Source: Vermamoeba vermiformis | Lineage: Eukaryota | Length of the DNA stretch: 44,398 nt | Direction of reading: 5' to 3' | Assembly (NCBI GenBank): GCA_045837725.1 | Contig: JBEWZL010000146.1 | Coordinates: 62,001-106,398 of the forward strand | In this document: positions 6,296 through 43,290 of the stretch, piece by piece | Numbering within the stretch: position 1 is the first letter of the stretch | How the letters are laid out: each line of letters begins with the position of its first letter | The notes under the pieces: model-generated | What the model was told of the DNA's origin: nothing | The model's input: only the letters and a program-made list of their open reading frames with translations | The model's database searches: none | Translations under genes and position numbers: made by a program

Positions 6296-6711
6296 AGTTT
6301 CATTTAGATCTTGTAAATTTGTTCTCTCGTGTAAAAAATCTTGCAAATACGATGGTCTCCGTGTTGCTCTGAGTATGATTGTATACCATTTAGTGAGTAA
6401 TTTTATAAGATCTCGGTTAGATCTGTAAGCGGTGCCAGATGTCGCTAAAAACAGTCGATTAGATTTTGTTTCGGCAATTAGCCGTGGATTTTTCGGCGGA
6501 TAATAATAGACGAGTCGTTGCTTCCTCAAAAATTGGTGTCGCGTTACGAATAAGCATTAATTTCCGTGTAATTTCTGCGACTTTTGTACGAGATTTTTTG
6601 ACTGTCCTTTTTGTCAGCTATAAAGTTCAAACCGATCTTTTAGTTTATTCAACCTCAAAAGTATATCGACGATATACACGCAAGCCTAAATAGCACCATT
6701 CGACAAAAACA

Positions 6712-7904
6712 ATGGGCAACCACAAACGACGCGCTTACGTACCGAAGTCTTATTGGACTCCCTTATTTTGGCGACCAATCCCTCGCTCGCTCGACTTTCC
6801 TTCTCGACGAAGACACCCTGTCTTGGCTGCTTTGATGGACTGGTTCATCGTGTTGGTTTTAATCGCTTTGATAATCATTTTCCGATTGGTCCCTGCTCCG
6901 TCTAACATTCAATATTTCCGAGTTAATGACCCTAATTTAAAGTACGTATATTTAGCATTCGAAAATCAAGCTTAGTACTAATCCTATTACGCAATAGTTA
7001 TCCGGATCTGCCCGAAGTAGTGAACCAAACAGTTTCTTTTATAGTCTTAGTAGTTTTCCCTGTTGGAGTCTTAGCACTAGCTCAGGCATTCCTGCGTGAC
7101 GGGGACGACTTCCACTCCGGCTTTCTCGGTTATGTTGAGGCCATCCGTAAGTGACACTTGTGACACGTGTCAAACTAACTTTGTCTAATGCGGATCTGCA
7201 GTGTTTTCATTCGCCGCAACTACCTTCCTCTGGTTCACTATTGGTGGATTGAGACCGAAGTTCCTTGCCCAATGCAAGCCTGACATGAGCAAGGTGACCG
7301 ACGTCAACGCGTACTACTCGACTGAGATCTGCACTGGCTTCAACGTCAACGAGCTCAATAGTCTCGATTCAGCCTTTTCACCTCGCCCTACTCAAGCGTA
7401 AGTCAGATCTATCCCCTTTGAATCAACCATAGGAAGTTTAATGACTTTGCTTCTTAAAGATGGCCGAGTGGTCACGCAGCGAATATCTTAGCAGCAGGAG
7501 TGTTCATCATATTCTATTTGAACGGCAAATGGAAGACATTCGATAGGCGAGCACATCTGTGGAAACTTTTCATTTTAGTGTGCATATTTATGGCTTACTT
7601 ATTCATCGGATTGAGCCGATTAAGAGGTATGTACTTAGTATTTGACAATAGGCAATTAAACAAGCTGGATCTAACTTGGATCGTGTTTTCAGATTTCGAA
7701 CACAACAACAGACAAGTTATTACGGGTATTATTATTGGTATTGTTAGCGCTTTGTTGGCCTATGCCTTGAACTACTGCTCGTTCTTGGGTCCTGACAACC
7801 ACATCCCTTGCCGCAAGTTGAACAAAGGCAAAACTGAAAAAAAGCCTGAGTCGCAACCGCCGGTAGACCCCGTCGATCAACAGCGAGTAATGGAGATGGC
7901 CTAA
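6712..7904 (+). CDS. PAP2-family lipid phosphate phosphatase, paralogue 1 (5 exons)
   Basis: C1 ...LRP, C2 WPSGH and C3 SRLRDFEH motifs; several transmembrane helices. Confidence 0.9.
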
Positions 7905-8115
7905 ATAGCTCCTCTAGAGGATTATAGGTATATTTGTACCATTTCTCGTCTGCCGAATAAACTTTGCGACTATTTAATTCTTTAACGAAAACTCAGCGAA
8001 CTTCTTTCTCGATATATTGCCGCTCTCGACATGGTATCACTGCGACAATATGAGGTTGTACCATGGTTCCTTTATTTGTCCTTTGTTATTTTCGGATCAA
8101 GGTCATAAATTCGCA

Positions 8116-9272
8116 ATGAACGAATCACAACGAGAATTAAATCCTTTAACACCCCTATTAACTTGGTCGCCTATTCCAAGCTTCGAGTTTCGACCAGAGA
8201 AGAAAAGAGAGCTCAAAGGCGCATTAATGGACTGGTTTATTATTGCAATTTTGATAGGCCTTATTTTGGTCTTCCGATTAGTACCAGCGCCTTCAAATAT
8301 TCAATATTTTCGCGTTAATGACCCAGAATTAAGGTAGCAGCAATTATTATGATAATATCTAATCGTTTACTAATATTCTATTAGTTATCCTAATTTGCCC
8401 GAGATTATCGATAACAAATATTCCTCCGTGCTGCTAATTATTCCATTGGTCGTAATTATCCTAACATCGTGGATAGCACGAGACTGGAAAGACTTTCACA
8501 AAAACTTATTGACTTACATCGAGGCAGTGCGTAAGTACAACAAAAATATTCTGACACCTGTCACGCGATCTGATCCGCTCTCAAAAGTGTTTTCATTCAC
8601 TGTAACAACCTTCTTTTGGTTCACTATTGGAGGACTACGACCAAAGTTCTTAGAGGAGTGTCAGCCTGACATGAGCAAAGTGACAGATCCGAACAAATAC
8701 TACTCGACTGAGATCTGCACGGGCTTCACGCTCGACGACCTCTCGAGCCTTGCGACAGCTCTTACTCCAAGACCAACGCATGCGTAAGCCTAACTTTGCT
8801 ATTCATATCATCACACTGCCGCCTCGTATATATTATATTGTTATTCATATTTGTCTTGTAATTAGGTGGCCCTCGGGACACGCTGCAAATATCCTCTCAG
8901 CAGGGGTATTTTTAGTGTTATTTTTGCACGGCGTTTGGAGAACTTTTGATCGTCCACAGAGACTATGGAAGTTATTCATTCTCATTTGCATATTTGTTGG
9001 ATATTTATTTGTTGGACTGACTCGTATTCGAGGTAATTTTAAAAAAATAATTTCTGCGCCAGATCCGCTGATATTTTTGTTTAGATTTTGAACATAATAG
9101 CCCTCAAATTGTTACTGGCATGGTTATTGGTATGAGTAGCGCTATAATCGCATATGTTTTCAATAATTATAGCGCTAGTAATAATAGCGATAATAAACCA
9201 AAATAATATAATTTTAAAAGCGGATCTGTAATGCTCGTTCGTTTAAAGAGATTGAAATATTGTTTTATATAA
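8116..9272 (+). CDS. PAP2-family lipid phosphate phosphatase, paralogue 2 (tandem duplicate with the same intron positions)
   Basis: WFTIGGLRPKF, WPSGHAANIL and TRIRDFEH; strong similarity to paralogue 1. Confidence 0.9.
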
Positions 9273-12300: not shown

Positions 12301-14383
12301 TCGATCAGCTTATGCAGCAACAGCATGCCAACATCGTCTTTGCTTAAATAAGGCTCTTTAGGCTCCAATGTACCATCTACTTGGCCAGTGAATGGTTTTT
12401 TGAGCTTAAGTGGCGGCTTTGTAATGAACAAAGTGTCCGTTTTTTCGAGGATCTTGCGCAGATCGAGAAACTTTTTGAGCTCTAGAATAGACTGGGTCTT
12501 GTCTAGTCCTCGATGAAACCACTCGCGGCAGTCTCCTAATAGCTCGTGCACGCGCAGAGAGTCGGGCTCGCATTCTGACCAGAACCGATCGAAGAGCATC
12601 AGTCCGCAGCAGAACAGATCGTTGAAAACAAATGAGCCATCAAACAGCATGTTGTTCACGTGCTTGTCCAATGCTATTATATAATACGACATTAGTAACT
12701 ATAGTTTAGTAACGAACGTTCAATGAGATCCGCGTAGCAAAAAAAAATAAAAGAAATTGATATGTGGGATATAGCAAATTTTTACGAAATAAAAGGCACA
12801 GGAGAGCCTACTATTTCCTGCAAACCTGCATGTGATGGACAAATAAGGCTATTCTAAGCCATAATTAACACTTTAAGGTAGATCAAATTGGATGTGGTAA
12901 GTACGCAGCAAATTATCGTTCAAAAAATTATTATGGTACCGAGACCAAGCTCTATAATAAACTTACTTTCGTTTCCAAAGAACCATTCGAGTATAATCTG
13001 CGTAATATTGATCAAAACTAACGACAGCGGATAATCCGTCGGATCCATTCCTTCATGTTCGTCCAATAAGCGTCTATATACTGGATAATAGTTCTCGCCA
13101 AAGTACAACCACGATTTGACGGTCAACAAGTTAACTCCGACCCAAAAGACCTCGCTGCTGTAATTCTGCAAGTAATCGTTGTACATCGTGATCCGTTGCA
13201 GCAATTGTTGATGAGCTTCTTTGTTAGGATTGAACAAGATGCGACTATCATCGTACCAAGACTCTAATAAGCACGTCTATATAAAATACAACGAGGTTAG
13301 AAGTGTTTGCAATAATTTATCGAAAACCTATTTTTGGACGTCCGAGAACGGACCTTCGGTTCTTTTCGAAAAAATTCAGATATGTGGAAATTGAATTCCA
13401 AACGATGTATATTATAGTAATTGATATTGTTATATGCTTAGTGTAGGTTTAAGTTGCCTCGTTAAATTTAGAAAATAAAACTGGTGCTTGTACTTAAATT
13501 TAAATAAACCTTAGTATTTCTTAATATTGGAATTATTATCGTTATTTAGAACATAAATTGCACGTTAAATGATGAATATAAGTCATAAGCAATTTTAATC
13601 AGCTTGACAGACAAACTAACTGTCAGTTTACGTTGTTGACTTCGAGTTTAATTTTTAGTTATTTTGATGCGTTAGGTTAATAGAGGTATTAATATAGTCC
13701 TGTTAATTATATGGATCATAATTCAATCAATTTCGAGGGCAACAATTGTAAATTTACTTTTGCATACCTGATAGCGCAGTAATGACGGCTTGACACTATT
13801 AGGCTCGTGCTTGGATAGGTTCTGATATTATAAATACAAATAAGCATATTTTTCGTAATTTAAAATAATTTGATGAGTTTAAATTAATTTTCTTACCAGC
13901 AGTTTTGATGCGAAATTTAACTTTTCCAATACGTTCAGTAGCTCGCTAGATTCACCTCTGGGCAGTAGTACTAGCATATTTACAAAGAAAATAGCTATCA
14001 ATTCACGGCTGAAAACTGCTATCGTCTCGTTGTTCAATAAACTCGCCAAACGCTCGATGGGATTAGCGAGTTTGGGGTTGTTTGTTGTCGATAATAGCTT
14101 ATAAAATTGAGTCACATATTTTTTGTTCTCCTCTAGCACTTTGATGGCTATTTGAAGCGTGTCTGTAATGAGGTCGTCTGACTGGACATCTAACGCGTTC
14201 AATAATGTTGGAATAAATGCTTGAATTGCACTTAAGCTGCCGTCATTTGCTCCATTCATCGAGGATTTAACCTAAATAAATTATTTTAATTTTTTTAAAC
14301 CGCGCCTAACTGAAAGATAAATTTTGATACTGGATGCGCTGTGTAACTGCAATAAGATTTACCTCGGAAGAGCTTGAGGACAT
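9384..14383 (-). CDS. Large multi-exon protein with two ELMO/CED-12-like domains, helical repeats and a low-complexity/coiled-coil C-terminus
   Basis: ELMO motifs FNPNKEAHQQLL, DYPLSLVLINIT and FNDLFCCGLMLFDRFW; second set PFDHTN..HVQLVRQLY, FELLGLQG and NYPTCHVAVKL. Start MSSSSE|VKSSM inferred from splice signals. Confidence 0.75.
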
Positions 14384-15135
14384 ATAGCGATATATATTAC
14401 AATAGTGCTCTTCGAATGGTTGCAAAGGATGAGCTCTAACAAAAACAAAATGCGACAGAAAATCAATTGTCCTGCCTACTCGGCACCAATTCCTGCCCAG
14501 ATCTGCATAACAAGAACACGTTTCTCGCCATCGTTTGCTAGCATTAAAGAGCCAACACTACTAATACTAATGAGTCTTGCGAACACGTTGTTGAATTGAG
14601 TCCTGTTTGCATAAGGGGATCTCCGCCTTGATGCATCAGCGGGATGTGGCTTGTGTAACCTTCGTGTTCATAAAACCCAATTAGTAGCTACACAAACACC
14701 GATTCTTGATCGGTTGTATCCTTAAACTCGTTTAAATATTCTTACTTTCTGACCTTGTTTTTGGGATTGAGCTTGAATGCCAAACCCTGATTTCGCTTAC
14801 CGTTACTAACCACAAAATATATTCGGGCATATTTTAAGACTAATTTTAGCGTTGCGTTTACGAAGATTGAGCGCTTTAGCGTATTTTTGAAAATCGATGG
14901 TGGAAATGAATCTTCTTAGCGCTTGCTGAAAAATCGTAGATAATCAAAAACACGATATAAATGTAGTCCCTGAATTATTTATAATATTATGGCTATTTAT
15001 AAGCAATATTTAAACCAATTGTGACGAACTTGAATGATCACCGACGACAGCGGTTCCATCTAACCAGCCTCAGCCTCAATACGTATTAAAGCGACTCAAT
15101 ATTGTTATTTATTATCACTGGGGACCAGGCAGCGA

Positions 15136-15143
15136 GCCCACAA
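15136..15143 (+). promoter_or_regulatory. snRNA upstream sequence element (DUSE/USE-like, GCCCACAA)
   Basis: CCCACAA lies 61-67 nt upstream of the predicted U6atac start, matching the core and spacing of the Dictyostelium upstream sequence element WCCCAYAA (about -63). Confidence 0.65.
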
Positions 15144-15203
15144 TTTATTTTGAGCAGTTTTTGGGCTCCAGACAAAACCACCGCCACTGAACAATTGTTG
15201 GAT

Positions 15204-15312
15204 GTGTACGTTGAGCCGAGAGAAGGTTAGCAACTCCCCCGATAGGGACGAGGCGGTCATTTGACCTAAAACTTACATAGGCAAACCAACTATAAGTTGG
15301 AACTTTTTTTTT
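15204..15312 (+). ncRNA. U6atac: U6atac minor-spliceosome snRNA with a variant 5'-splice-site box
   Basis: GTGTACGTTGAGCCGAGAGAAGGTTAGCA aligns without gaps to human GTGTTGTATGAAAGGAGAGAAGGTTAGCA (recalled from memory). AGC triad intact; ISL CTC-CCC-CGATA-GGG-AC-GAG; hairpins GGTC-ATTT-GACC and CCAACT-ATA-AGTTGG; T9 end. Confidence 0.9.
15304..15312 (+). terminator. RNA polymerase III oligo(T) terminator of U6atac
   Basis: Nine consecutive T, 3 nt after the 3' hairpin. Confidence 0.75.
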
Positions 15313-15513
15313 GTAAGGCGATCGAGCCGTGCAGGGAATTTGCATCGTGCTTCGCGTGTGCCACCCTTTGTATCTACATTACTCGAAAATTTATGTAAAC
15401 TGAAGTATTATGATACATTGGTTGAGAAGTACTAACCCGTAATCTGAGAAGTAATTACTGGGTGTTAGCGCAATTTCACTCTATTTAATTTTTATTTTTG
15501 ATCTGGCAGCACA

Positions 15514-17460
15514 ATGGGCAATATTTTGTCTCAGTTTGGCATCATAAGGTTCAGCGATGTAGCCAGGTACGATTAATGTCATATCAATTGGTCCTTCTAT
15601 GGTGAATTCAATCGATCTCTCGCGATCGTCGTGATCGAATCCACTCTGTCTTCCCTAAAAATTAATAATAAATTCTAGGAACGAATATTTTCGTGCCGGA
15701 GTTGGTTTATTAGCCGTTAGTGCTGCCACTGGTGTTATTCGAGCATTTGCAACAATTATGTGGCGACGCGTCAGATCCAGCTTATCTGTCACTGTTGAAA
15801 TTCCCAGTAGGGACCATGCCCATGGTATGTATTAATTATTAAAAATATTATTACGCTAATTCATGCGAAGCTGTCGGATCTGAGTTCACGTTTCATATTA
15901 TTTTAGTTTACTCGTTAGAAATTAATTTGTAAAAGCACTATACTAAATTATTATGAATATTAATGATGGTTTAGCTAAATAAATTATTTTCGTAGCTTGG
16001 ATCTTGGAGTTAATGAACGAGTTGCCCTACAGCAAAAGATCACGAACACTTGCATTGGAAACAACATATGAACGCGATGAAGATGGTGTTAGCGAGCCTA
16101 AAGTATTATTCGTACCAAATATAGGCCACCATTTCTTCAGTTACAAAAACAAGTGGATTTGGTTGACACGTGATCGCGACAATAGCGTGAGCGATTATTC
16201 TACTGGTGGACCATTAGAGACCATGACTTTGACTACATTCGGCACTGACCGCCAAGCACTTCAAACTTTTATTAGTGACGCTATGAAATTATCAATGGCC
16301 AAAGAAGAAGGTAAGCTGCAAAGTGCCAGATCCGTTCGAAAGCAATACCATGTTCTTATATTTCCTTTTTAGGCAAGACCGTTATTTATACCGTCGCTAA
16401 TGGTGATTGGACTAGATTTGGTGTTCCTAGAGCAGTACGACCATTGCACTCAGTGGTCTTGGAGAAAAATATTTCCGAGAAGCTATTGACGGATGCAGTC
16501 GAGTTTTTGAACAGTTCTAAGTGGTATCACACACGAGGTACGTTACTAACAATATATTAATCACTAGTCGCCTAATAGTACCATATAGGCATTCCATACA
16601 AGCGGGGTTATTTGTTCTACGGACCTCCTGGCAGCGGAAAAACCTCGTTCATTACAGCGCTGGCCGGAGAATTAAAACTGTCCATTTGCATCATCAATTT
16701 GAACAATCAAGACCTCAATGACGAACAGTTGAGTCATCTTTTGAATAACACGCCCAACAAACGATGCTTGATTTTGATTGAAGGTACGACCAATTTCTCA
16801 CAATCACTTTCCTTTTATGGAAATGAGGCTGATTGAGCTATTTTTAGACGTCGATGCCGCTGCTATTGCCAAGGGTACTACAGCTGATCACTTCGGGTAA
16901 GTCCAACTAAAATTTTCTTGTTTTTGAGAGTTTTCAAGATTTGACACCTTATTTCCTTTTATAGTAAAGGCGTTACCTTGTCAGGCCTGTTGAACGTATT
17001 AGACGGAGTTGTCAGCCCCAGCGAAGGTCGATTGATCTTCATGACCACCAACCACTTCCAATTGCTCGATGCAGCGTTGATCAGACCAGGTCGTGTTGAT
17101 ATGAAAGTCCATTTTGGTCTCGCAACACCAAGTCAGGCAAAAAGACTGTTTTTGAATTTTTATCCGGGCGAAGAAAAGTTGGCAAAAGAATTCGAGAAAA
17201 GAATTCCCGATCGAACTTACAGCATGGCACAGCTTCAAGCCTACTTTGTATATTGCAAGAGCAGTCCTGCAACAGTGGTCCTTGAAAACGTTGAAAATTT
17301 GGGTCAGATCGTGTCGGATCCAAACTCCGAAATTATTAAGCGCGAAGTTATTACGATTGATTCAGACAAAGAAGATAGCAATCAAATTGTTGGATTTATT
17401 AAGAACGAAAAACACGATGACGAAGAAGATAATCATCAGTTGAGATCCAGCAGAACATAA
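15514..17460 (+). CDS. BCS1: Mitochondrial chaperone BCS1 (AAA ATPase), multi-exon
   Basis: N-terminal [20 protein letters not shown] and [59 protein letters not shown]. Confidence 0.92.
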
Positions 17461-17486
17461 AAATCTCCCATTTTTCCACGAAACTT

Positions 17487-19771
17487 TTATTTCGCACCAT
17501 ATTTCACAAGTTGTTCGAGCCACAGTACATTGTTATTCTTCGCACATTGCAGCGGAGTGTGGTCCGTGATTGTTCTTGCGATTGATATCGACGTAAAGGG
17601 CTAGCAGACTCACCAAACTAGATCCGTTCTCGCCGCTGTTCTTGCACAAGAGATGCATCAAGTTGTTGCCTTTGTTGTCCACAAATGTCACATCTGCACC
17701 ACGTGACAGCAACAGCTCGACAATGTTTTTGAGATGGAGTGACACTGCGAGTGAGAGCGCTGTTTGTGTGGCACGTGGTCCTTGAACAACGGTGTTGATG
17801 TGTGCGCCGTGTTCGAGCAGCAGCGTGATGTTTTCGATGGCCATTGTCTCGTTTCTTGTTGCGGTATTGACTGCGAGCATCAATGGCGACGCGAGTAATT
17901 GAGGCCCAATGAGGTTTGGATCTGCTCCGTACGTCAAGAATGTTCTTGGACTAGCGTCTTTTTCTAACGCTGCCACTAATAGTGTACGCCCGGTACTGTC
18001 TTTGTAATTAATTTTCTCTTTGCAATGGCGGATGAGGCCCATCGCTAAGCTTGCGTTGTGGTTGTACATCCGCGTCATGATCCAATGGCCGTGCGCATCT
18101 TCAACTATTTCACCCCATCGTTTGAGTTCGGAAAACACATAATACGATACATTATGCCAATCGACGTTCATACACTTAATGTACTGCTTCGTATCAGTAA
18201 GATCGTAATTGCACGTGCTAGCCAGATCTTCAAACTGAACGTTGTTGCTGCCCAAAGTAGCACCTTTGCTCAGCAGGAAATCTGCGTGGCTACGTTTTTG
18301 TTGCTTAAATGCCCGAAACAGCGGAGTATTTCCGTCAATATCGCGTGGGCTCCAGTCATCAATGTATTGCGAGAGTTCGTTAACGTGTGACGGAGAAACC
18401 TCATTCTTGTAGCGAATCATTGCGTGAAGAAATGTCGCGCCATCTTCGTCTCGCACTTTCATGAAATCTCGAACCTGTTCTGGTCCGAGAAAATGAACGA
18501 TTTCTGTCACGCTGATCTTATTCACGAATCCGCAAAAAAAGTTTGGGCCACCTTGTAAGAGATATCTTTTGTCTTCATGATAAGCTTCGATTAGCGCTTT
18601 GATTTGGTCTATAGTGCCGTAATCGACGTAAATACTGAGCCGGATCCACATTGGCCAATCAAGTGCTGGCAAGATCCGAATAATTGTTTCATTCATCGCT
18701 GGCATATATTTGTACGTGTAAAGAAATTGAATGTTAGACCTCGGATGAGCTGCAAATGTGCTGTAATCGGCAAAATTGGTGGCACGAAAATTGGGAGAGG
18801 AAGGGAAGTGATACTGTTGAGCTCTTGAATTCAGATCGCACTCGTATTCGAACGAAGAGTGCTTATAATATACTTCTAGTGCATTTTCGTATTCTACATT
18901 TAAGACCAGCTTGAAGAATAAACTTTGCGAGTTGAATCTGAAAAACTGTTCGTACGACATGTGCTTTCCGAGTGGTGCGTTCCTGCAGACTACTGAGTAT
19001 GAAATAGGCCATCTCTGTGCTATACTATCGATATTTTTCAGGGTAATCATCGTACAAACGAAAATACAGCGCTACGTGTTGCAGATTTGGAAAAACTGTT
19101 TTGAGATCTTGGAGACAGTCTTCTTTGTGATAAACAATGCTCAATTCTTTCACTTTCGAAAATTGCGTAGTTCTTAAGGTCGAAATTTGCTTTAGAATAT
19201 CTGCAGCGGTGCTTCTGATTTCCAATCTGGTCAAATCTGGAAAGCCATCTAACATAGGACAGTCCTCAACTGCGATGGATAGTGTTGATATTCCTCGTAA
19301 TAGTTGTTTGCCGATGTTTTTAGCGTGTTTTCCATGATCAAAACAAAACACCAGCGTGTGTAACCGATCGGATGCGAATAGGAGTTCTTTGATCTCCTCA
19401 AAATTGCAATAGCGCGAAGTATTATAAAGTATCATTGTCGTTACTCTATATTCCTCTGCCATTTTGGCTGTGAATAGAAGGGGTTTTGCCAAGTTGAGGC
19501 TGATTTGTTTGTTTGCATCCGCTTGCTGACAGGCTCTTTTCCATCTTTTAGATACTTTAATGAACACTCTAAGCCATATATCAAAGCAAAAGTATTTAAA
19601 CACTTGTCCTAGAATCTCTAGCGGTAAAATATCCAGCGAAACGGACACATCTGCTTCCAACTTTGCTTCCTGTGTAAATTTATTCAAATTAGAATTTTGA
19701 TAATTATAATTAGAATTATTTAAGTACTGCACTAATTTTTGCTCTCTTTGGCGGCTCGAGCATTCCATCAT
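17487..19771 (-). CDS. Intronless F-box + LRR-like + ankyrin-repeat protein (two apparent +1 frameshifts near 19036 and 17561)
   Basis: F-box LDILPLEILGQVFKY...VSKRWKRA; ankyrin repeats DGATFLH, DGNTPLFRA, TGRTLL, SPLMLAV and QTALSLAV. Removing one base near 17561 gives a last repeat GHTPLQCAK...LVKYGAK*. Confidence 0.8.
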
Positions 19772-19951
19772 CGCTCCTTTTTCTCTTCAACATTTACGTT
19801 TGCGCAAACCAACAGTGAGCTCTTGGCCTCAGTGGTGGCGTATCACGACTTAGCAACGAAAAGTATTTAATTTCCGCCCAGATTTTTTCGTACTCTTTTT
19901 GCATGACTGAAGTTGGCTTTTTTTTATTGCGCAGGAAAAACCAAATTTGCA

Positions 19952-22695
19952 TCACATAATAACTAGACTGAGAACTACAAATAATGTGATTACAATGTTC
20001 TGAATGTTGGAGCTTGCAAACGACACAGAAGGGTTGCCGGGACTATTTGTCGTGGGTGCTTCAATGACAGGCGGGAGATAATCGCTGGATCTGCATTGAC
20101 TCGCTAACTGTTGCACTGGCAGCGTCTGTTCCGCGTACGAATAACAATTGAAGTACCCGAGGTTCAGTGACACATTGCGCGAAGGACCTAAAGGACACGC
20201 GAAGACCGTGTCAGCATGATTGGTGCCAAACGCATAAGCGGCGCCGCTGTAGCCCTGTGCGTAGTTGTTCTGCACGATCGTGTTGACCACCGAGTACAGC
20301 GTGGCATTGGGCGGTCCTAATTCGACGTACTGGGCCTCAAAACAGTTTGACAGGAAGAGGCCCTGGGACACGTTCTTAAACACATCTTCGATCGGAGATA
20401 TTCCGCCGACACGTGTCAAATTGTTGCCTCGAACCTCGATGCCGAACAACATTGTTCCACGAGTGAATCGATCTTGCGCTGAGAGCTGACTGCCAGCCAA
20501 TCGGATCATTGCACTGGCTCGTGGATTGTCGCCGTAGATCAAATTGTTCAAGATCTTCGAGTTGTACACGAATGTCAGTTGAAGAGGTTGGGACGGAATA
20601 TTAATATTTCCGCCGCACTTAGGAGCAACAGTAGTTCCGCTGATGGACTGGTAGGGCTGATAACTGATTCCACCTGAGTTAATGAACGAGTTGCCAACGA
20701 CTGTCGAGTTTACGAAGGCTGAGGCGTACAGCCACAAGCCACGTGGATTTCCTTTGAAGAGCGTGTCTTTGATGATCCAATTCAGACCACCCAAGGGATT
20801 GTACGCGTAAAGGCTGTCAGATATAGGTACCACTTGCCAAGGCTGATCTAGCGTGAAAGTGTTGGCTGTGGCTGAGACAACACGACGTGTCTGACCCATG
20901 CCCGGACCACTCGTGATCGTCACGCTCAGCATGTTAGCAGTCTTAAAGCTCCAGTTTGCGGAACTGTCTGTCAACGTCGTGCTCGTGGCTGAGGTCACGC
21001 GGCCAACGCCCGCTTCACCACGGTAAGGTCCACCGCCTTCACTCAAAATAGTTTCTCCGTCGTTGTTGAAGTTTGAAAAGTTGTAGTAGAGTGTTTCGAA
21101 TTGGCTGTTGGTGACGGCAATGTTTTCGCAGAAATTGCACGACCACATTCGACTTTCGACTGGACTGGCCCCGGCAAATTGTTTGCGGGAGTCGCGGATG
21201 AGGTGAAAATTGTCAAACACTACATTCTTCGTCGAGCTCGAAGTCATGTAGCCATTCTCGAAGTACAGCCATACATTTCTAAATATGGCATTTGTAGTGC
21301 ACCCAAATAGGAAAAGTGTTGTCGTCTGTGCTTGACCCAACAAGACATTCTGAGAAGTAATTGTGACGTCTTGCACGAGCATGTTGTTGGCTGCCACGCC
21401 AAAATACGAGCCTTTGATGTCCAAAAACAATCGGACTAGTGCAAGATTCGAGCTATTTCTACTTGAAATCGCAGTGCTAGTGAAGCCAGGGTTGACATCT
21501 GCCGTAGCCAAAAGTGACAGATCCATCATGGCGAAGTTGTCTAATGAACTGTCTGAGCTGTAGATCCATACATTAGGATCGTCCATGTTGCAGTAACCAA
21601 AGTAAATAGTCGTCTTGTTGACACCAGCGCCTTTAATCACAATATTGCTGTGAAGCTGCAAAGATCGACAGGAGAGCCAGTAAAATGTTCCTTCGGATAT
21701 TTGCAGCATTCCTCCGCCTTGTGCGGATAAACTGTTAATTGCATTTTGAATGTCCGGAAACACGTCATATGAGCTGTTGGAAGAGCTCGGGATCGTTATG
21801 ACGTTTGTTTCAGCGAACCAAAAGTTGACGCCCCAACCAAGGCCGAGACCTAGATAATCTTTGCCTAATCTGGCAATAACGGTGAATGTACTGGTCTGCT
21901 CTACACTGAGTCCATTATCGACTTGCACGCGATAAACAGTGTCATTCAGCAGATCCGCTGGAGTCACTACTGTCAATACAAATTGATCGCTATCTTCAAC
22001 CAATACTTGAGCAGATAGCGCTGTATTTGTTCTATAAGATACTATATCAATACGAGTTAAAAATTTGGGATCTGATTTACCCTTCCTGAACGAACTTGAC
22101 TGTCGGTTGCCAAGCACTGCCAAAGTACAAATTCTCACCATAGATCTTCATTTCAGTGCTTGGAAGAATTTCGCTCTTATCAGACTGTTGAAGGAATGGT
22201 TTGTTCAACGTTACTGCCTCGCTTTCTTCGCTGCCTGATCTGACCTTTGTAAAACAGAAACGGTTAAAATCCAGGCAAATTTGACGTATAACTCTTACTT
22301 TAACGTGATAAGCTTCTAAAAACCAATCGTTCGGGATGATAAATTGGATGACAGATCCTTCTCTCGGGTCAGAAGGAATTAATTCGGCGGTTACTTCAGC
22401 TTGGCTATTTCCTGATATTAGGACTTGTACATTCGATCCAAATCCATCGCCTTGAACGTAAACAATGTCACCTGTCGGAATATTATATAAATAATTGTAA
22501 ATAAATTACCAGCTAATTGGATCCGCTTTATTAATTACGGAAATGATATTTTTGAGTGTTAATATGTTATCTTACAAGAAAATTACCTGGAAAGCCAGTA
22601 GACGAATGATTTAAAATGACGGTTTTGGCTGATCCGAGCAATAGTCCGTTCGATAGCAATACAATTAAAGCGCAGATGACCAAATCTTTAATCAT
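19952..22695 (-). CDS. Secreted/GPI-type protein with IPT-like N-terminus and pectin-lyase-fold (right-handed beta-helix) domain
   Basis: Signal peptide MIKDLVICALIVLLSNGLLLGSA; IQNAINSLSAQGGGMLQISEGTF and LHSNIVIKGAGVNKTTI (beta-helix N-cap); hydrophobic C-terminus; three 5' introns. Confidence 0.8.
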
Positions 22696-22921
22696 GTTTT
22701 ATTAACACGGTTGTGGTGGCTCTTTGCTTCATTTGAAGATATGAAAATCATAATGTCGAAGCGATTTCTGAAGAAACAATTCAATTTCGTGACAATCTAA
22801 CGCCGTAGTACGGAATTCAATTGAAGGTGTTTTATTTTACAAACGTTGCTTCTTATTGCCTGCAGTATTGTTATGTACTGGTGCAGATTTGACAAAAAAA
22901 GAAATTTATTTTACAACTAAT

Positions 22922-25900
22922 CTACATTTGTTCGAGTTTCTGAACGACTTGATCAATGGTCGGACGCTCCTTAGGTGCCATTCTCCAACATTCTTCCATG
23001 ATTGAGGCGAGTTGTGGCGAGCAATCGTCAGGAATGGTCGGTGTCAGACCATTATCGCGAATAGATCTGCCGACCTCGATTGGATCTACCGATGAATGCG
23101 GCTCGTTTTGGGAGATAATTTCGAACATTAATATACCAAATGACCATACATCTGAACAAAATAACATTACGTTAGTACCGGTGATAGATCTGGATCCGGC
23201 TGTATTCCGCTGACCTGATTTGGCAGAATATTCTTTGCTTTTCAATGCCTCAGGCGCCATCCATCTGATCGGACCGAGCTCCGAAGCAGTTGTTCCACGC
23301 TTCTGTTCATCAACAAATCGCGACATGCCAAAGTCCGTGATCTTGGGCTCGTTGTTTTGAAGCAAAATATTTCTCGCTGCAATATCGCGATGCACAATGT
23401 TGTTCGCATGCAAGTGGCCAAGTCCTTTTGCCACGCCATAGATCCACGCCAACTTTTGATCTTTCGGGAACCGCTCTTGGCTTTCGAATAGCTTGTCATC
23501 AAGTGATCCACCGTTGCAATATTCGATCACTAGTATGATGCTGTCTGTCTCGGGATGCACGCTGAATCCAAACAACTGCACGACATTGGGATGAGGTCGG
23601 AGTTGCATCATTAGTTCGAGTTCTTTGATCACCGTTGAATTGGCTTGAGTTGCGCTCACTTTCAGCGCGACATTCGAGCCCTTCCACGTGCCTTTAAAGA
23701 CTTGGCCGCTGGCTCCCTGTCCTAGCTGCTCCGCCGAATGTGAGGTCCCTGAAGGGAATGAACCACTTGCCGTACTGCGTCTCCAAGCCAACAACGTTGA
23801 GTCCTCGTTTCTTCTTCTTGTTTCGACGGAGCACGAAGAACACAACCAAACCTACTGCCACTGCCACACCCACAACAACGGGTACTACAATAGCCACTGT
23901 CAGATCGCTGCCACTGAGCATGCCTGAATTTGGATTGTCCGAGGTGCCAGGAGAGAGCACGGGAGAGTTTAACGACAAACGAGCTAACATCCAGCCACGT
24001 GACTTCGTTGGAGTAATATCCGAGACTGTAGTGTTGGCCACCAGCTGTCAAGATGAGCCCATTGCTGAGTGTTGTACTGACTGCAGGTAAAATCTCCAAG
24101 CTGTACGGGATAACGTTCCACGTGGCCAGGTCATTAACATCGATATATCGGACAGTGCCATCGTCACCGCAGAACACAAACAAAATGTTGTTCGATACAG
24201 CTATGGAGACTCGTGTTTGAGGTGTTGTTAGCAGTGAGAACTTGTTCCATGTTTGTGTTGTCGTGTTGTACGTATAAATGCTTTCAAATGTGTTCTGGGG
24301 AGTGAGAGCGGTAAAGTAGATGACATTATCATAAACAGCGAATGAATGTGTATAATCAGATGTCTCTCTTCCCGTCGCTGCGGTAATCTGCGAGTCGGTC
24401 AGTCGAAGGATGCTCGTCAAAACTATCGTAGGGAAATACGCCGTGCGTTGTATGACAGGAATGCTTGTGAACGTTGAAGAAAGAACGAACTCCGAAAAAA
24501 TTCCCGGAATCGGGATACTTGACCAGTTCTTCGCTATCGTGTCGAACATAAGCAATGTCCATCTATCGCGCAAAATGAGGGTGTGGTCCAAGACTGCCAC
24601 GGCTCTGTATCTGCTGGAGGTTGACGAAAGATTCGCTGCAATTGAGTCTTCCCACGCGCCAGTCTGATAATTGTAGACATCGATATAAGAGTATTCTTGG
24701 ATCGTCGGTTGTTTCGGCATGACCACTAGACCATCCGCTGATTGAACGAGACCGTCAGCAACGACATCTATCGGCTGAGTGTACGTCAAATTGACCCACA
24801 CATATCCCTGTGCCAGATTGATGATGTTTCTGCCAACCACTGTGAGGTCCGGGCTCGGTGTAGTCGTGAATGAAACCTGGGAGCTGATTGATGAGGATGC
24901 CTCAGGAGGTAAATAGACTATCCAAACAATAGTAGTGTTCCTGACTACCACAAATGTCGCGTCATCAATGGCGAGGACAGCTGTAATTGTAGCACTAGAC
25001 GTTAAAACTGACGTTACAGTTTTAGCTGTAGAGTCATAATAATAAATTGTGTTGCCATTGTAAATGAGCTGTCTGTTGAAATAAGGCGTAGTGCTAGTAA
25101 CTGCGGCGATTTGATTGCTCGTACTTGTCCACGTGCCATCGTAAACAAGGGTTTCTCCTGCCTTCAAAATTACGAACTGGTCGTTGATTCCAAAGGCAGA
25201 AAGTAGTCCATCGACTTGGATCCGTTCTGAAGTGCTATTCTGCCAGTCTATTTGCCAGAAACCACTGTGATCCACCACAAACGTAACATCCGCAAACGAA
25301 ACTGCTTCGAATGGGCTGGTTGTTGGTAGTTCGAGCCAATTTGAGGTGCCTAAGCGATGGACGAAGGCGCGGTCTGAAAGCCAAATGACGACGGTGTTGT
25401 ACGAGACTCGAAAATCACGTGTTTGAACGGATGTGGATGTGTTCCAGGTCGTCACATTTTCGAACAACTGTAGGTCGTATGATGTAGAGTTGAATATCCA
25501 AGCCCCGTGGTATTGCTCCTTTGAGGTAATATTGAAGCCTCCGACACTGATGATGAGATCTTCATGAACGATGGTATTTCCGCCGGCGAGTTGTTGCATA
25601 TGATCCGTTAATTTCGTAGAATTTGACCACGTAGAAGTACCGATATCGTAGAAATCGGCGGAAAAAGATCCAAGTACGGTTAATTTCGAGTTGTGAATCG
25701 AAAGTTGAACCGGAGTACGAACCGTACTGCCGCAAGTAGGTGTTGTTGCATAATTAAGCGTCGTTGGGTTCCAAAAGCTTGGGCAATTTTTTGAAGTGCG
25801 GCCTGCGATAAAATACAGTCGTGGATAGATGTGCGCAGGGGACACAAATCCACGAGCTTCAGGAAGTTGTAGCGTCTGAACAAGACTTTTGCTGCTAGTG

Positions 25901-26082
25901 TCGAATACATCGATTTGCTTTGACGGAATCAGGTCGTGCATCTCGTATCCGCCAACGAAATAGATTTTATCGTCCACTTGCAACGATGACATTGCACTAC
26001 GATGAGTGGATATGTACGTAGTAGCTGTAATTAAATCGCCACAAGCAACACTGATAACAGTGCCGAGGATGAAGAGAAACAT
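22922..26082 (-). CDS. Single-pass receptor kinase: kelch-like beta-propeller ectodomain, transmembrane helix and tyrosine kinase(-like) domain (two apparent +1 frameshifts near 23969 and 23731; one intron near 23152-23214)
   Basis: Signal peptide; kelch GG motifs (KIYFVGGY, IISVGGF, ILTAGG); TM VAIVVPVVVGVAVAVGLVVFFVL followed by RRNKKKKR; GQGASG, VALK, HRDIAARN, DFG and PIRWMAPE. Confidence 0.88.
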
Positions 26083-26551
26083 CCATTTATGGAATAACAC
26101 GGTGCATCTGAAATGAGTGGTCAGTTAAATGTGTTCAAACAATGGTCATATTTTATAAAAAACCAATTTGAACTGATTTTTTTGGTATTTGATATCGGAT
26201 TAATACCGCAAAATGTAAAATAACGAACCACCGTGATTCGATCTACGTACCTAGGTTTTGGCATTGGGTTTTCAAATATCGCAACGACCGTGTCGTGGTC
26301 GTGGTGTCCTACTATAAAATTGTTGACAAAAATTCGCTAAATTTGCAATTTTATCGCGTGCCGTGTCAATCAACTTACCCATTGAGACCAAAGTCTCATC
26401 TGCTTTTTTTCACCACCTGTCTAGTATTTTTGCACGTGATTCATTCCTCGATTGTCTTCTAATATTAATAGGTGAACGGTGACAAAGCTGTTGTTATCTG
26501 CGCCAGAGACGAGGGGCGCAGATGTGGATGGAAAATTGATTTTATTGTCTT

Positions 26552-28059
26552 TCAGCTGCACAAAATCGTTACGCGAGATTTTTGCAATATCTCCAATAGT
26601 ATTTCATTTTGCAACGGCGTTAATAACTTTTCTAGTTCTGTATGAATGCTCATCACTTCTGCTTCCTCGCGATTTTCAACGGATTCGACCAAAGCATGCA
26701 ACACCGAAAATACCCAAGTGTTATCAAAATATACATTAGCACTCTCCCTAGTGTCTTCAAATATGTTCACTTCTTCACCGCCATTCGCTGTAGCCTCGTT
26801 CGCGTACTCTCGTTGCACGTGTTTGATCATCAAATTCGCTTGAGAAAAGTCGTCCTGTAGTAACATAATTAGCATGACATATTAATATAATTATAGTAGC
26901 ACGCACCAGTAGTATTAATATAAATATTAGAGTTATATAAGCTTCGATGAGTTGGTCAATATAAAACGGATCTTTGTTGTTCAACGTCGATTGTTCCGTC
27001 GCTAACTTGACAATCCATTGCACGAGTTCAAATGATTGCTTATAATTTTCTAATATAGTGTTAGTGATTTGCTTACTAATAGCCTTTAAATAACCACGTG
27101 CTACGTACTGTGTCTGAAGTGGCACTCAAAACCCTTTTTCAGGGAGTCAATCGCCATCATAGCATTTTCACCTTGTTGAATCTCTGCTGCTCGCTCAAAA
27201 CAATACGCTGCTTCTTTTGTTCGCCTTAACATCTGCAACAAAAAACAAATGTGTTCGTTAACAATGGACACGGGTTCACTATAAGGGAATGCCGTTACAC
27301 ACCATCAATCCGCTGCCCATTTCAAAATATAGTGATGCGGCCATTGCAAATTTCTTCTGCTCCATATATAGCTAATAATTATTGTTAAAAATTGATTACT
27401 GATGGATCAAAGATCTGGCCACGTACTTTAATAGCCATTAAATAACAGTGCTGCGCTTGTTCTGCATTTTCATGAAAACTGAAATATTGCATTGAATCGA
27501 GGTCCTTTTCACTCTCCCAAAATATGTGACCTAAAAAATGTATTATAGCTTGATCCTCGTGTCAACTTTCGCCGCAGATCTGATATTTACGCACCTGCGT
27601 TTGTTAAATATAGTGCCTCTAGTGCTGTATTTTTCATAGCTTGGTGACATCTTGCTACTGCTAGACAAACAAATGCTGTGTATTGGTGTTCACCATCTCG
27701 TGTTAGTGCCTTCGATAAATTAATAAAATATTAATATTATTGGTACAGAATATTATATGTTGTTATGCGGATAAGAATTGTTATCAAATAATTAAATTAT
27801 TTTTTATAATTACCTTTATTAATTGGTCATATTTTTCTAAAGCTTCTCCAATATTCGGCTTCCTTAAAAATCGCCTAAAAAATGTATTAGCATTTAAAGA
27901 TTAATTTTAGAGTCAAAGACAAGCCGATCTTGCTTCAGATGGAAAATTCAATTTTGATAACGGAATGATTTACCTTTTTGTCAGTTTCTTTGTTATTAAC
28001 TGATACGATTCTAAATAATTAGCGCCTACTGCATCGTTAGGACCTTCAAACCCAGACAT
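26552..28059 (-). CDS. F8A1: HAP40 (40-kDa huntingtin-associated protein) orthologue, multi-exon
   Basis: YLESYQLITKKLTK|RFLRKPNIGEA and AFVCLAVARCHQAM match the HAP40 hallmarks KLKKRFLRKPN and CQLAVARCQQAL. Confidence 0.88.
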
Positions 28060-39257: not shown

Positions 39258-40333
39258 TCATTGATAGATTGCCGCCGCCGTCGCCAGAGACAAGGAAGAG
39301 CAGCGCTCAAAAAATTGAGGAGTTCTCATCGCCTCGATGATCGCCTGTGGGACTGACAAGCGCTGATCCAGAGAAAAAGTGACGTAACGCATGTAGGCGT
39401 CTGACACCCAGTCTCCTTGAGCCTTGACCATCACCCTGTCCGCTCCCGCGATGAAGGCTCCCGTCGTGCCACCTTTACGCAGCGAGTGTGCGGAGAAATC
39501 CTTCGGATCCAACCCGCACTGAAGGCAGGTCTTCTTGATCACTGGAGAAAACAGGTAAGTAAGCACAATATGCAACTACTGCCACGATACTTACTATCGT
39601 TAAGCTTCGAGTGCACCAGCGGCATAACTCTACCGTCATCACCTTTAAAACAAAAAATCGACCCCGATTCAGGCATGGGACACAAGGCCCACATCGCCTC
39701 CAGGGCCACTTCGGGACACAGCGCATTTCCCGGTACTGAGAGCAGCGGGATGATCAGCCTTCTCTCGTTGAATTGGACTGTCTTCGTTCGATTGAGCGAA
39801 ATTAAGAAACCACGCTCGTTCCTTGACAAGTTCAACGCGCTGAGATGCTTTGCTGGGTCGAATTTCTTCGCAGATTTCTGCACAAGGTTTCCACCCCGAA
39901 GAAAAGACCAGAAGCCGACCACGAGGCAAGCCCAGAAAGTGCGGTGGAGAGATGATGACCAGTCTAAGCACGCCTTGAGTTTGAGCAACTCCACAGGAGT
40001 GAGAGGGTGCTTGCTCGACGGTGTGTAGGACTGCGCGCGTTTAATGCCCTTGAGGACCACCTTGAGGCGAAGGCTGTCACGCGCTGGGTGTGGGCCACCA
40101 TGCAACTGTTGAAAAGCGAAAATGGCTGTCAAGTATGTCTTGATCGAACTTGCCTTGACGCCATTATTTGCAAGATATGCCGCGTAGTCGGCCAGGACAA
40201 ACTCGTTCGTCGGGAAGAATGTTCGATTCGAAGCGTAGCAGAACCTGGCAAAGGCCGAAACCACTGCCTGCCTGGCCTTGACCGTGGAGTCCACATAGCC
40301 GAGGCCAATGTAATCTTCCGCTGTCAAAGACAT
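39258..40333 (-). CDS. Tyrosine recombinase of the element (exons 40333-39595 and 39541-39258; 340 aa spliced)
   Basis: Catalytic R (FLRGGN), K (RTKT), HxxR (HSLRKG), GDW and Y (YMRY); the two ORFs join in frame on removal of a 53-nt GT-AG intron. Confidence 0.9.
39542..39594 (-). other. Spliceosomal intron within the YR gene
   Basis: GTAAGT...cttacttacctgttttctcCAG, 53 nt, phase 1, restoring KLND-M-IKKT. Confidence 0.85.
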
Positions 40334-43268: not shown

Positions 43269-43290
43269 CGTTGAAATTTATTTCCGAATT

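What the first reader, a model, noticed from the sequence alone, without database searches (positions are those of the whole stretch)
15204..15312. U6atac snRNA with a rewritten 5'-splice-site recognition box: possible variant minor spliceosome
Seen: an intergenic RNA gene reading GTGTACGTTGAGCCGAGAGAAGGTTAGCAACTCCCCCGATAGGGACGAG..., with intact AGAGA and AGC triad, an internal stem-loop, two 3' hairpins and a T9 end. Known: U6atac nt 11-15 (AAAGG in human and plant, recalled from memory) pair with the U12-type 5' splice site RTATCCTT, with G15:C+5 and G14:C+6. Here nt 12-14 are GCC rather than AAG while the flanking catalytic core is unchanged. Inference: this RNA would pair poorly with canonical U12 donors and well with about /RTATCGGYT. 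The lineage may have recoded its minor-intron consensus, or may carry a second U6atac serving a separate intron class that standard U12 classifiers would miss. Three clean substitutions do not resemble the homopolymer insertion errors seen elsewhere in the window. No matching intron was found in this window.
Basis: partly seen in the sequence, partly recalled or inferred. Interest (0 to 1): 0.9.

Follow-up and report, generated by a model that had tools for sequence, protein, structure and literature searches.

The report
Ordinary U6atac gene, known CC variant
This is a real and conserved gene for U6atac, the catalytic RNA of the minor spliceosome, and its odd GCC box is the "CC variant" described in 2008 in many eukaryotes that still have normal minor introns, so it does not point to a recoded splicing system.

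Summary
Rfam places a full-length U6atac at 15204-15311 (+) with 54.8 bits against a cut-off of 33. Nucleotides 12-14 (15215-15217) read GCC where the family consensus reads AAG. An independent metagenome contig matches 15199-15309 with 0 differences. Two syntenic relatives, L002 and L020, carry the same box. Their gene body is 98/100 identical to the window while the flanks have diverged.

The interpretation does not hold. Davila Lopez et al. 2008 (PMC2396436) named this motif, [GU]CCGA in place of AAGGA, the U6atac "CC variant". They found it in Trichoplax, cnidarians, a sponge, Acanthamoeba, Physarum, Physcomitrella and oomycetes, with one type per species. The minor introns known in those lineages have canonical RTATCCTT donors.

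My metagenome scan for U6atac genes lacking G14 returned 59 loci. Of these, 55 read GCC, spread over five of seven unrelated-looking backbones.

No RTATCGG-type intron, second U6atac or U11 was found, but no genome was available to search. How a CC box works with canonical donors has been unexplained since 2008. This is a new member of a known kind, of low interest.

The parts
15204..15312 (+). U6atac snRNA gene, including the T9 run
   Evidence: RF00619 hit at 15204-15311, 54.8 bits against a cut-off of 33, model 1-126/126. It is 107/109 identical to syntenic loci L002/L020, whose flanks have diverged.
15215..15217 (+). nt 12-14 = GCC. With G15 and A16 this gives GCCGA, the 'CC variant' form of the 5'-splice-site box (consensus AAGGA).
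   Evidence: Alignment to the Rfam consensus. Motif [GU]CCGA described in PMC2396436. Identical in X5 record 13 and in L002 and L020.
15218..15232 (+). Catalytic core GAGAGAAGGTTAGCA, with the AGC triad at 15229-15231
   Evidence: Identical to the Rfam consensus at these positions.
15234..15252 (+). Internal stem-loop (nt 31-49): 3 bp, a 2-nt bulge, then 3 bp
   Evidence: RNAalifold on 11 CC-type U6atacs gives pairs 31-36/42-49. Pair 36:42 is U-A in 9 sequences and C-G in the window and L002.
15255..15266 (+). Hairpin GGUC/GACC (nt 52-63)
   Evidence: Four of the five alignment pairs show changes on both sides across the backbones.
15286..15300 (+). 3' hairpin CCAACU/AGUUGG (nt 83-97)
   Evidence: The only 2 differences from L002/L020 lie in its loop.
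15304..15312 (+). T9 run, read as a Pol III-type terminator
   Evidence: The run is T17 in L002/L020. Its function is inferred.
15136..15164 (+). Conserved upstream blocks at -68..-54 and -50..-40, a candidate external promoter element
   Evidence: Invariant columns in the window/L002/L020 alignment, within flanks that are otherwise diverged. Function is inferred and not tested.
15112..15119 (+). Conserved upstream block TTATCACT (-92..-85)
   Evidence: Invariant in alignment A1. Function unknown.

Best explanation
This is the organism's ordinary, functional U6atac gene, of the 'CC variant' type that was already described.

Shown or read directly from the sequence: it matches the U6atac family model, it has a T-run end, and it has a conserved upstream element.

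Inferred from the family: its GAGAGA/AGC core and internal stem-loop form the catalytic centre of the minor spliceosome together with U12, after release from U4atac. A T-run end and an upstream element are what a Pol III-type gene would show.

The GCC at nt 12-14 is not a private rewrite. It is a discrete alternative state of the box shared by many distant eukaryotes whose minor introns keep canonical RTATCCTT donors.

Most likely mechanism (inferred, about even odds within this explanation): in CC-variant lineages U11 selects the donor, and U6atac then holds it by a short contact. The contact would be A16 with U+4 and G15 with C+5, perhaps also G12 with U+8 and A11 with U+9, with C13 and C14 left unpaired opposite U+7 and C+6. 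The rest of the positioning would be done by proteins, much as for the short U6-donor contact in the major spliceosome (that comparison is recalled, not from a call). The strict conservation of CC suggests it has some other partner, which is still unknown.
For: Identity: RF00619 at 54.8 bits against a cut-off of 33, full model, the only Rfam hit in the window.

Purifying selection: L002 and L020 are syntenic relatives (blastn pieces of 75-88% identity, lying between window 6868 and 17462). The U6atac body is 98/100 identical, against 45 of 69 aligned bases at -70..-1, 57 of 134 further upstream and 51 of 89 downstream. The binomial probability of 2 or fewer changes in 100 at 20% divergence is 7e-8.

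Structure: 9 of 23 predicted pairs show compensatory changes across 11 CC-type sequences.

Sequence check: X5 contig with 0 differences over 15199-15309.

Known kind: the CC variant [GU]CCGA is documented in seven lineages, one type per species, with canonical U12 introns in Acanthamoeba and Phytophthora, in Physarum and in P. sojae and P. infestans.

Breadth, found here: among 59 metagenome loci selected only for lacking G at nt 14, 55 read GCC. All 59 of 59 pass the RF00619 cut-off, at 58.7-116.3 bits. Of 60 sequences (59 loci plus the window), 55 could be clustered. They fall into 7 clusters at 85% identity over nt 30 to the end, and representatives of different clusters share only 49-80%. 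Five of the seven clusters carry GCC.

Ordinary introns: the exon gaps I could map in the window are U2-type. Five of 6 show GT...AG boundaries, and one was mapped exactly to a GTAAGT donor.
Against: None of the following could be checked in this organism, because no genome is held: whether it has U12-type introns at all, what their donors look like, whether U11, U12 and U4atac exist, and whether a second AG-type U6atac exists.

Expression is not shown cleanly. One of 2 RNA runs (X21) gives 3.8x depth on the gene bin. Four of its reads run on past 15311 into sequence unlike the window. None of the 43 reads laid from the two RNA runs is 99% or more alike, so these runs come from a diverged strain. 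The other run (X23) has 0 depth on the gene.

The short-contact mechanism is inference. The human suppressor experiments show that G14 and G15 pairing with C+6 and C+5 matters there (PMC4980772, passages). It is therefore unexplained how C14 is tolerated.

The window's U6atac is the most divergent backbone (49-64% identity to the other clusters) and scores lowest among the sequences that look functional.
Confidence: 0.87

Rival explanations
1. One reading: this lineage has recoded its minor-intron donor to about RTATCGGYT, and the GCC box is the matching change in U6atac.
For: Predicted duplex energies favour it: CC box with AUAUCGGCU -9.7 kcal/mol against -3.4 with AUAUCCUUU. The organism's own minor introns were never seen, so it is not excluded. 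Co-evolution of a minor snRNA with its intron motif has one precedent, Physarum U12 and its branch site.
Against: The same box occurs in many lineages with canonical donors. RTATCGGY occurs 2 times in the window against 3.73 expected, and neither match is a plausible intron. Across 380,056 bases of window plus CC-variant loci, RTATCGGY followed by a branch-site-like motif occurs 4 times, against 4-6 for four control motifs. One apparent GTATCGG lies 4 nt inside an intron whose donor maps exactly to GTAAGT.
Confidence: 0.04
2. A second, specialised U6atac paralogue. A canonical AG-type copy would exist elsewhere in the genome, and this CC copy would serve a separate intron class.
For: Not testable here, so not excluded. 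The metagenome scan was designed to exclude G14 copies, so it cannot show that they are absent.
Against: In all species examined in 2008, either the AG or the CC form was present, never both. There is exactly one RF00619 hit in each of the 59 loci and in the window. With reads accepted from 80% likeness and differences listed from 3% of reads, no alternative letters were listed at 15215-15217 (that table was truncated).
Confidence: 0.03
3. A decaying or silent U6atac pseudogene.
For: It has the lowest Rfam score among the functional-looking copies (54.8 bits). No clean evidence of a mature transcript. Pseudogene-like copies do exist elsewhere: L044 and L047 have a GCT box, no T run and 59.3 bits.
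Against: 98/100 identity to syntenic relatives whose flanks have diverged. Conserved upstream blocks. An intact core, stem-loops with compensatory changes, and a T9 terminator.
Confidence: 0.02
4. Same identity, different mechanism. The conserved CC has a specific RNA partner other than the intron.

Candidate 1: an intramolecular 4-bp stem of A11-G12-C13-C14 with G22-G23-U24-U25, which would loop out GAGAGAA.

Candidate 2: the same U11 G6/G7 that read the donor's C5/C6, so that U6atac would help displace U11 by binding U11 itself.
For: The stem appears in the single-sequence minimum-energy fold and in the consensus fold of 11 CC-type sequences, and evaluates to -3.3 kcal/mol. It cannot form with the AG box. 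The ACC box of L015 turns the G-U pair into A-U. That U11 G6/G7 pair with donor C5/C6 is shown by suppressor genetics. Near-invariance of CC across distant backbones implies a constraint.
Against: Positions 22-25 were fixed by my search pattern, so no covariation test is possible. The GAC box of L009 breaks one pair although that copy scores 116 bits. The published U-CC form would lose the G12 pair. A 4-bp stem is weak. By my recollection G23-U25 are needed for pairing with U4atac and U12; I did not check this here. No U11 from a CC-variant organism was in hand.
Confidence: 0.3

Closest known systems
U6atac 'CC variant' (Davila Lopez, Rosenblad & Samuelsson 2008, Nucleic Acids Res 36:3001, PMC2396436)
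   Same: The box reads GCCGA, which fits the published motif [GU]CCGA in place of AAGGA. The rest of the molecule is a normal U6atac. The published paradox applies here too: the box cannot pair well with canonical U12-type donors.
   Different: The organism is unidentified and may be a lineage not listed in 2008. Its backbone is the most divergent of those seen here (49-64% identity over nt 30 to the end). The paper's Figure 5 and supplementary alignments were not available to me, so I cannot say whether a close relative is already listed.
Canonical AG-type U6atac (Rfam RF00619 consensus; the human snRNA used in the P120 suppressor assays, PMC4980772)
   Same: The same 5' GTGT start, the same GAGAGAAGGTTAGCA core, an internal stem-loop, a 3' stem-loop and a T-run end.
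   Different: nt 12-14 are GCC rather than AAG. In human cells G14/G15 pair with donor C6/C5, and C14 cannot do this. The 3' half is shorter: 108 nt against a model of 126.
Physarum polycephalum U12 snRNA and branch-site co-evolution (Larue, Elias & Roy, preprint 10.1101/2020.10.12.336362)
   Same: This is the one documented case where a minor-spliceosome snRNA recognition box and its intron motif changed together.
   Different: There the matching intron motif (TTTGA) was actually observed in thousands of introns, and the donor stayed [GA]TATCCTT. Here no matching intron motif is seen, and the snRNA change is shared with lineages that have canonical donors.
U6 snRNA of the major spliceosome (features recalled, not from a call)
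   Same: It has the same role: a catalytic snRNA with an AGC triad and internal stem-loop, made by Pol III, contacting the donor through only a few base pairs.
   Different: The Rfam clan competition assigns this locus to U6atac, not U6. The core reads GAGAGAAGG rather than the U6 form.

Membership tests
U6atac snRNA (Rfam RF00619) | Covariance-model score at or above the curated cut-off over the full model | tested here: met
   54.8 bits against 33, E 1.1e-10, model 1-126/126.
U6atac snRNA (Rfam RF00619) | Catalytic core GAGAGA...AGC | tested here: met
   15218-15232 is identical to the consensus.
U6atac snRNA (Rfam RF00619) | Internal stem-loop and 3' stem-loop | tested here: met
   Nine of 23 pairs show compensatory changes among 11 sequences.
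U6atac snRNA (Rfam RF00619) | AAGGA box able to pair with donor positions +4 to +8 | tested here: not met
   The box is GCCGA. Its duplex with AUAUCCUUU is -3.4 kcal/mol and does not use the box. The family as published includes members without AAGGA, so this does not exclude membership.
U6atac snRNA (Rfam RF00619) | Base pairing with U12 (helix I) and U4atac (stems I and II) of the same organism | not testable with these tools
   No U12 or U4atac in the window or in the 59 loci. No genome is held.
U6atac snRNA (Rfam RF00619) | Pol III-type gene: T-run terminator and upstream promoter element | tested here: inconclusive
   T9 at 15304-15312, and conserved upstream blocks at -68..-40. Promoter function is inferred only.
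U6atac snRNA (Rfam RF00619) | Expressed as a small stable RNA | tested here: inconclusive
   3.8x depth in one of 2 RNA runs, from a diverged strain, with 4 reads running past the T run.
U6atac CC variant (PMC2396436) | Motif [GU]CCGA at the position of AAGGA | tested here: met
   GCCGA at 15215-15219.
U6atac CC variant (PMC2396436) | It is the only U6atac type in the genome | not testable with these tools
   No genome is held. There is only one hit in the window.
U6atac CC variant (PMC2396436) | It coexists with canonical RTATCCTT minor introns | tested here: inconclusive
   No verified U12-type intron of either kind in the window or the loci. Known for other CC lineages from papers.
Co-evolved snRNA and intron-motif pair (Physarum U12 type) | An intron motif that carries the change complementary to the snRNA box | tested here: not met
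   RTATCGGY is at or below chance (2 against 3.73; with a branch site, 4 against 4-6 for controls). Power is low.

The most novel reading that the evidence does not exclude
The CC box is a working recognition element for a class of minor-type introns with donors near RTATCGGY. Classifiers trained on RTATCCTT would miss this class, in this lineage and perhaps in other CC-variant lineages. The evidence here does not exclude it, because no genome and no usable junction data of this organism could be examined. It is made unlikely by the canonical donors of Physarum, Acanthamoeba and Phytophthora and by the lack of any motif excess in 380 kb.
Probability: 0.03. Interest if true: 0.9.

Novelty: new member of a known kind. 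Interest (0 to 1): 0.2.

Why it matters
For this window it matters little. The gene is the expected minor-spliceosome RNA, and its unusual box was catalogued in 2008.

The wider point is a reminder of an old loose end. A large part of eukaryotic diversity carries a U6atac that cannot make the donor helix shown to be required in human cells, yet splices canonical minor introns. In the library I searched, only the 2008 paper uses the term 'CC variant' together with U6atac.

The metagenome scan adds that GCC is by far the commonest state once G14 is absent (55 of 59 loci). It also shows that rarer GAC and ACC boxes exist in copies that look functional. Annotators and scanners should treat a GCC box in U6atac as normal.

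Tried and rejected
Whole-genome search: none is held. The records behind L002 and L017 are not held either.

RNA holders: the look-up of sequencing runs listed no RNA holder.

Read laying: the two RNA runs with the same species label gave 18 and 25 reads, none 99% or more alike, and no joints. They therefore gave no intron catalogue and no clean transcript ends.

U12-type intron hunts:
- RTATCCTT occurs 3 times against 2.91 expected, and RTATCGGY 2 times against 3.73.
- A donor plus branch-site scan of the window gave nothing convincing.
- The same scan over the window plus 59 loci (380,056 bases) gave 13 canonical and 4 'recoded' candidates, against 4-6 for controls.
- The two best canonical candidates have no open reading frame across the junction and were dropped.

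Minor snRNA partners: none in the window at E up to 5, and none in 335,658 bases of loci.

AG-type comparators: scans of genome contigs and viral contigs with an any-box pattern found 0 stretches each. I therefore had no AG-type sequences other than the Rfam consensus, and I could not test what co-varies with the box.

Taxon: not resolved.
- The 731-aa ORF has only unnamed close relatives.
- A BCS1 exon is at most 62% identical to any listed hit; its best named hits, at up to 59%, are early-diverging fungi.
- A P450 exon has one unnamed 93% hit.
- The two Atlas look-ups and a PDB sequence search were uninformative.

Earlier findings of this scan: nothing on this genome or sequence.

Papers:
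- I searched for later treatment of the CC variant and found none.
- PMC11347168 and PMC10639083 (passages only) do not mention it in the passages shown.
- PMC2655684 (passages) and PMC8199999 (passages) add nothing on the box.
- Figures and supplements were not available.

Full report
OBSERVATION

An Rfam 15 scan of all 44,398 bases at gathering thresholds gives a single hit: RF00619 U6atac at 15204-15311 on the + strand. It scores 54.8 bits against a cut-off of 33, with E 1.1e-10, and covers model positions 1-126 of 126. A permissive rescan (E up to 5) adds only three sub-threshold chance matches to unrelated families. It finds no U11, U12, U4atac or second U6atac.

Counting nt n as window position 15203+n, nt 12-14 (15215-15217) read GCC where the family consensus reads AAG. 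The following GAGAGAAGGTTAGCA (15218-15232) is identical to the consensus. The internal stem-loop (nt 31-49), a hairpin at nt 52-63 and a 3' hairpin at nt 83-97 are predicted for the single sequence and for an alignment of 11 related sequences. The T9 run at 15304-15312 is read from the sequence.

IS GCC REAL?

Yes. I laid two DNA contig sets and two RNA read sets on 14001-17000, accepting reads from 80% likeness and listing differences from 3% of reads.
- A 111-nt contig of a water-metagenome run (X5, record 13) covers 15199-15309 with 0 other letters and 0 gaps. Neighbouring X5 contigs differ from the window, so this is another strain.
- The contigs of X2, from the same sample as the best holder, cover the gene bin at word depth about 518. 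No difference is listed inside the gene. That table shows only its best-supported rows, with 159 not shown, so this is supportive rather than conclusive.

Two metagenome loci, L002 and L020, carry the same gene with the same box.

IS THE GENE UNDER SELECTION?

L002 is syntenic with the window; its blastn pieces, at 75-88% identity, lie between window 6868 and 17462. In the three-way alignment the identities to L002 are as follows:
- U6atac body: 98/100 identical, and both changes lie in the loop of the 3' hairpin.
- -70 to -1: 45 of 69 aligned bases.
- Further upstream: 57 of 134.
- Downstream: 51 of 89.

At 20% divergence, 2 or fewer changes in 100 bases has binomial probability 7e-8. Upstream, invariant blocks stand out at 15112-15119, 15136-15150 and 15154-15164. 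I read these as a promoter element, which is inference.

Across 11 CC-type U6atacs, 9 of 23 predicted pairs keep pairing through changes on both sides. This is a maintained gene, not a decaying copy.

Expression is not settled. One RNA run (X21) gives 3.8x depth on the gene bin, with the first mate on the - strand. Four of its reads continue past 15311 into sequence unlike the window. The other run (X23) gives 0. None of the 43 RNA reads laid is 99% or more alike, so both runs come from a diverged strain.

WHAT THE BOX IS

I scanned the metagenome contigs for U6atac 5' ends in which nt 14 is anything but G.
- 59 loci came back.
- All 59 pass the RF00619 cut-off, at 58.7-116.3 bits, with one hit each and no other Rfam family in 335,658 bases.
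- The box reads GCC in 55, GCT in 2, GAC in 1 and ACC in 1.

Of 60 sequences (59 loci plus the window), I clustered 55 over nt 30 to the end. Five were set aside: four because my crude T-run rule cut them short, and one because its contig ends. The 55 fall into 7 clusters at 85% identity. Representatives of different clusters share only 49-80%, and GCC occurs in 5 of the 7 clusters. GCC is therefore a discrete state shared by very different U6atacs, not a private change of this organism.

The literature explains this. Davila Lopez, Rosenblad and Samuelsson (2008; PMC2396436; section 16 read whole) state the following:
- AAGGA is present in most U6atac RNAs.
- A different motif, [GU]CCGA, which they call the CC variant, is found in Trichoplax, cnidarians, Reniera, Acanthamoeba castellanii, Physarum polycephalum, Physcomitrella patens and oomycetes.
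- It is not a paralogue, because each species has either the AG or the CC form.
- It must have arisen or been lost several times.
- It is 'difficult to explain', because the U12-type introns known from Acanthamoeba and Phytophthora pair with AAGGA but not with the CC motif.

The window's GCCGA fits that motif exactly.

DOES A CC BOX IMPLY RECODED DONORS?

The published cases say no.
- Physarum, a CC-variant species by the 2008 paper, has its U12-type donors defined as [GA]TATCCTT. The only snRNA-motif co-evolution reported there concerns U12 and the branch site (preprint 10.1101/2020.10.12.336362, passages).
- Phytophthora sojae and P. infestans U12 introns satisfy the RTATCCTT rule (PMC2846911, passages).

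In the DNA available to me there is no sign of the predicted donor.
- RTATCGGY occurs 2 times in the window against 3.73 expected.
- One match lies inside an 800-aa ORF. The other shows no intron-like context and appears to lie opposite a minus-strand gene (by eye).
- Over 380,056 bases of window plus CC-variant loci, RTATCGGY followed by a branch-site-like motif and a 3' end occurs 4 times, against 4-6 for four control motifs.

Canonical candidates were more frequent (13), but the two best have no reading frame across the junction, so I count none as verified. These scans have little power, because minor introns are rare.

The introns I could map in the window are ordinary. I aligned close protein relatives to the window. 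Of 6 exon gaps, 5 show GT...AG boundaries and the boundaries of the sixth could not be placed by eye; where measurable, the introns are about 50-170 nt long. One intron begins GTAAGTATCGG, which contains the 'recoded' motif 4 nt in. Exact mapping against a 93%-identical protein places the donor at GTAAGT.

MECHANISM

- CC box with AUAUCGGCU: -9.7 kcal/mol.
- CC box with AUAUCCUUU: -3.4 kcal/mol, and that duplex uses the downstream AAGG rather than the box.
- Consensus AG box with AUAUCCUUU: -5.7 kcal/mol.

In human cells G14/G15 pair with donor C6/C5, and U11 G6/G7 pair with the same two bases (PMC4980772, passages).

My best account is as follows. In CC-variant lineages U11 selects the donor. 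U6atac then holds it by a short contact (A16 with U+4, G15 with C+5, perhaps G12 with U+8 and A11 with U+9), with proteins doing the rest. This is inference.

The near-invariance of CC argues for some partner, and I note two candidates. The first is an intramolecular stem of A11-C14 with G22-U25, which appears in the single-sequence fold and the consensus fold at -3.3 kcal/mol and cannot form with the AG box. The second is U11 G6/G7, which are complementary to any CC.

Neither candidate can be tested here. My search pattern fixed nt 15-29, so no covariation is possible. The GAC box of L009 breaks one pair of the stem. No U11 from a CC-variant organism was in hand.

WHAT REMAINS OPEN

- No genome is held for the window. 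I therefore could not check for a second U6atac, for U11, U12 or U4atac, or for the organism's own minor introns.
- The taxon is unresolved: the organism is a eukaryote without close named relatives in the collections searched.
- Figure 5 and the supplementary alignments of the 2008 paper were not available, so a close relative may already be listed there.
- In the library searched, only the 2008 paper uses 'CC variant' together with U6atac. Two further searches found no later treatment. Subscription papers are not covered.

VERDICT

The feature is a new member of a known kind. Interest is low for this window, although the underlying puzzle has been open since 2008.

Noticed in passing
L009:179-306 and L015:335-460: Two full-length, high-scoring U6atacs (116.3 and 93.7 bits) with T runs carry boxes GAC and ACC. 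Neither fits the published [GU]CCGA motif, so the box has more states than AG and CC.
   Followed up: partly
L044:2145-2262 and L047:1768-1885: U6atac-like copies with a GCT box, several other changes and no T run (59.3 bits). They are probably pseudogenes of one of the CC-type backbones.
   Followed up: no
window 17462-26550: In the syntenic relative L002, the sequence after the BCS1-like gene continues with a match to window 26550-27234. About 9 kb of the window therefore has no counterpart there. That stretch holds the ankyrin ORFs, the 731-aa ORF and the kinase and Kelch ORFs.
   Followed up: no
window 19952-22147 (-): A 731-aa ORF with no Pfam family. It has a 97%-identical unnamed protein, three relatives at 53-54% identity, and more distant hits including a bacterial 'glycosyl hydrolase family 28-related' protein with PF12708. 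This may be a gene of bacterial origin.
   Followed up: partly
window 22922-26124 (-): A protein kinase ORF (22922-23851) and an 800-aa Kelch-repeat ORF (23722-26124) overlap by 130 bases in different frames on the same strand. This may be one receptor-like kinase gene split by a frameshift or a short intron.
   Followed up: no
window 39405-43277 (-): A retroelement: an ORF with a reverse transcriptase domain (40324-41982, PF00078) lies between two ORFs that match no Pfam family. GC is about 0.50-0.52 here, against about 0.36-0.49 in the rest of the window.
   Followed up: partly
window 6694-9091 (+): Two tandem, similar multi-exon genes with PAP2 phosphatase motifs; the Pfam hits are in the ORFs 7458-7904 and 8684-9091.
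   Followed up: no
window 14416-14723: Run X2 holds two contigs over the same stretch, at depths 289 and 332. One has 3 differences from the window and the other has 18 differences plus 24 gap letters. This suggests two haplotypes or strains in that sample.
   Followed up: no
window 14001-17000, runs X21 and X23: RNA runs filed under the same species label as the best DNA holder give no read that is 99% or more alike (0 of 18 and 0 of 25). The label therefore covers strains or species that differ by several percent.
   Followed up: no
window 28708-28766 (-): A 59-nt intron of the sterol 14-demethylase-like gene begins GTAAGTATCGG. The 'recoded' donor motif sits 4 nt inside a normal GTAAGT donor, which could trap motif-based searches.
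   Followed up: yes
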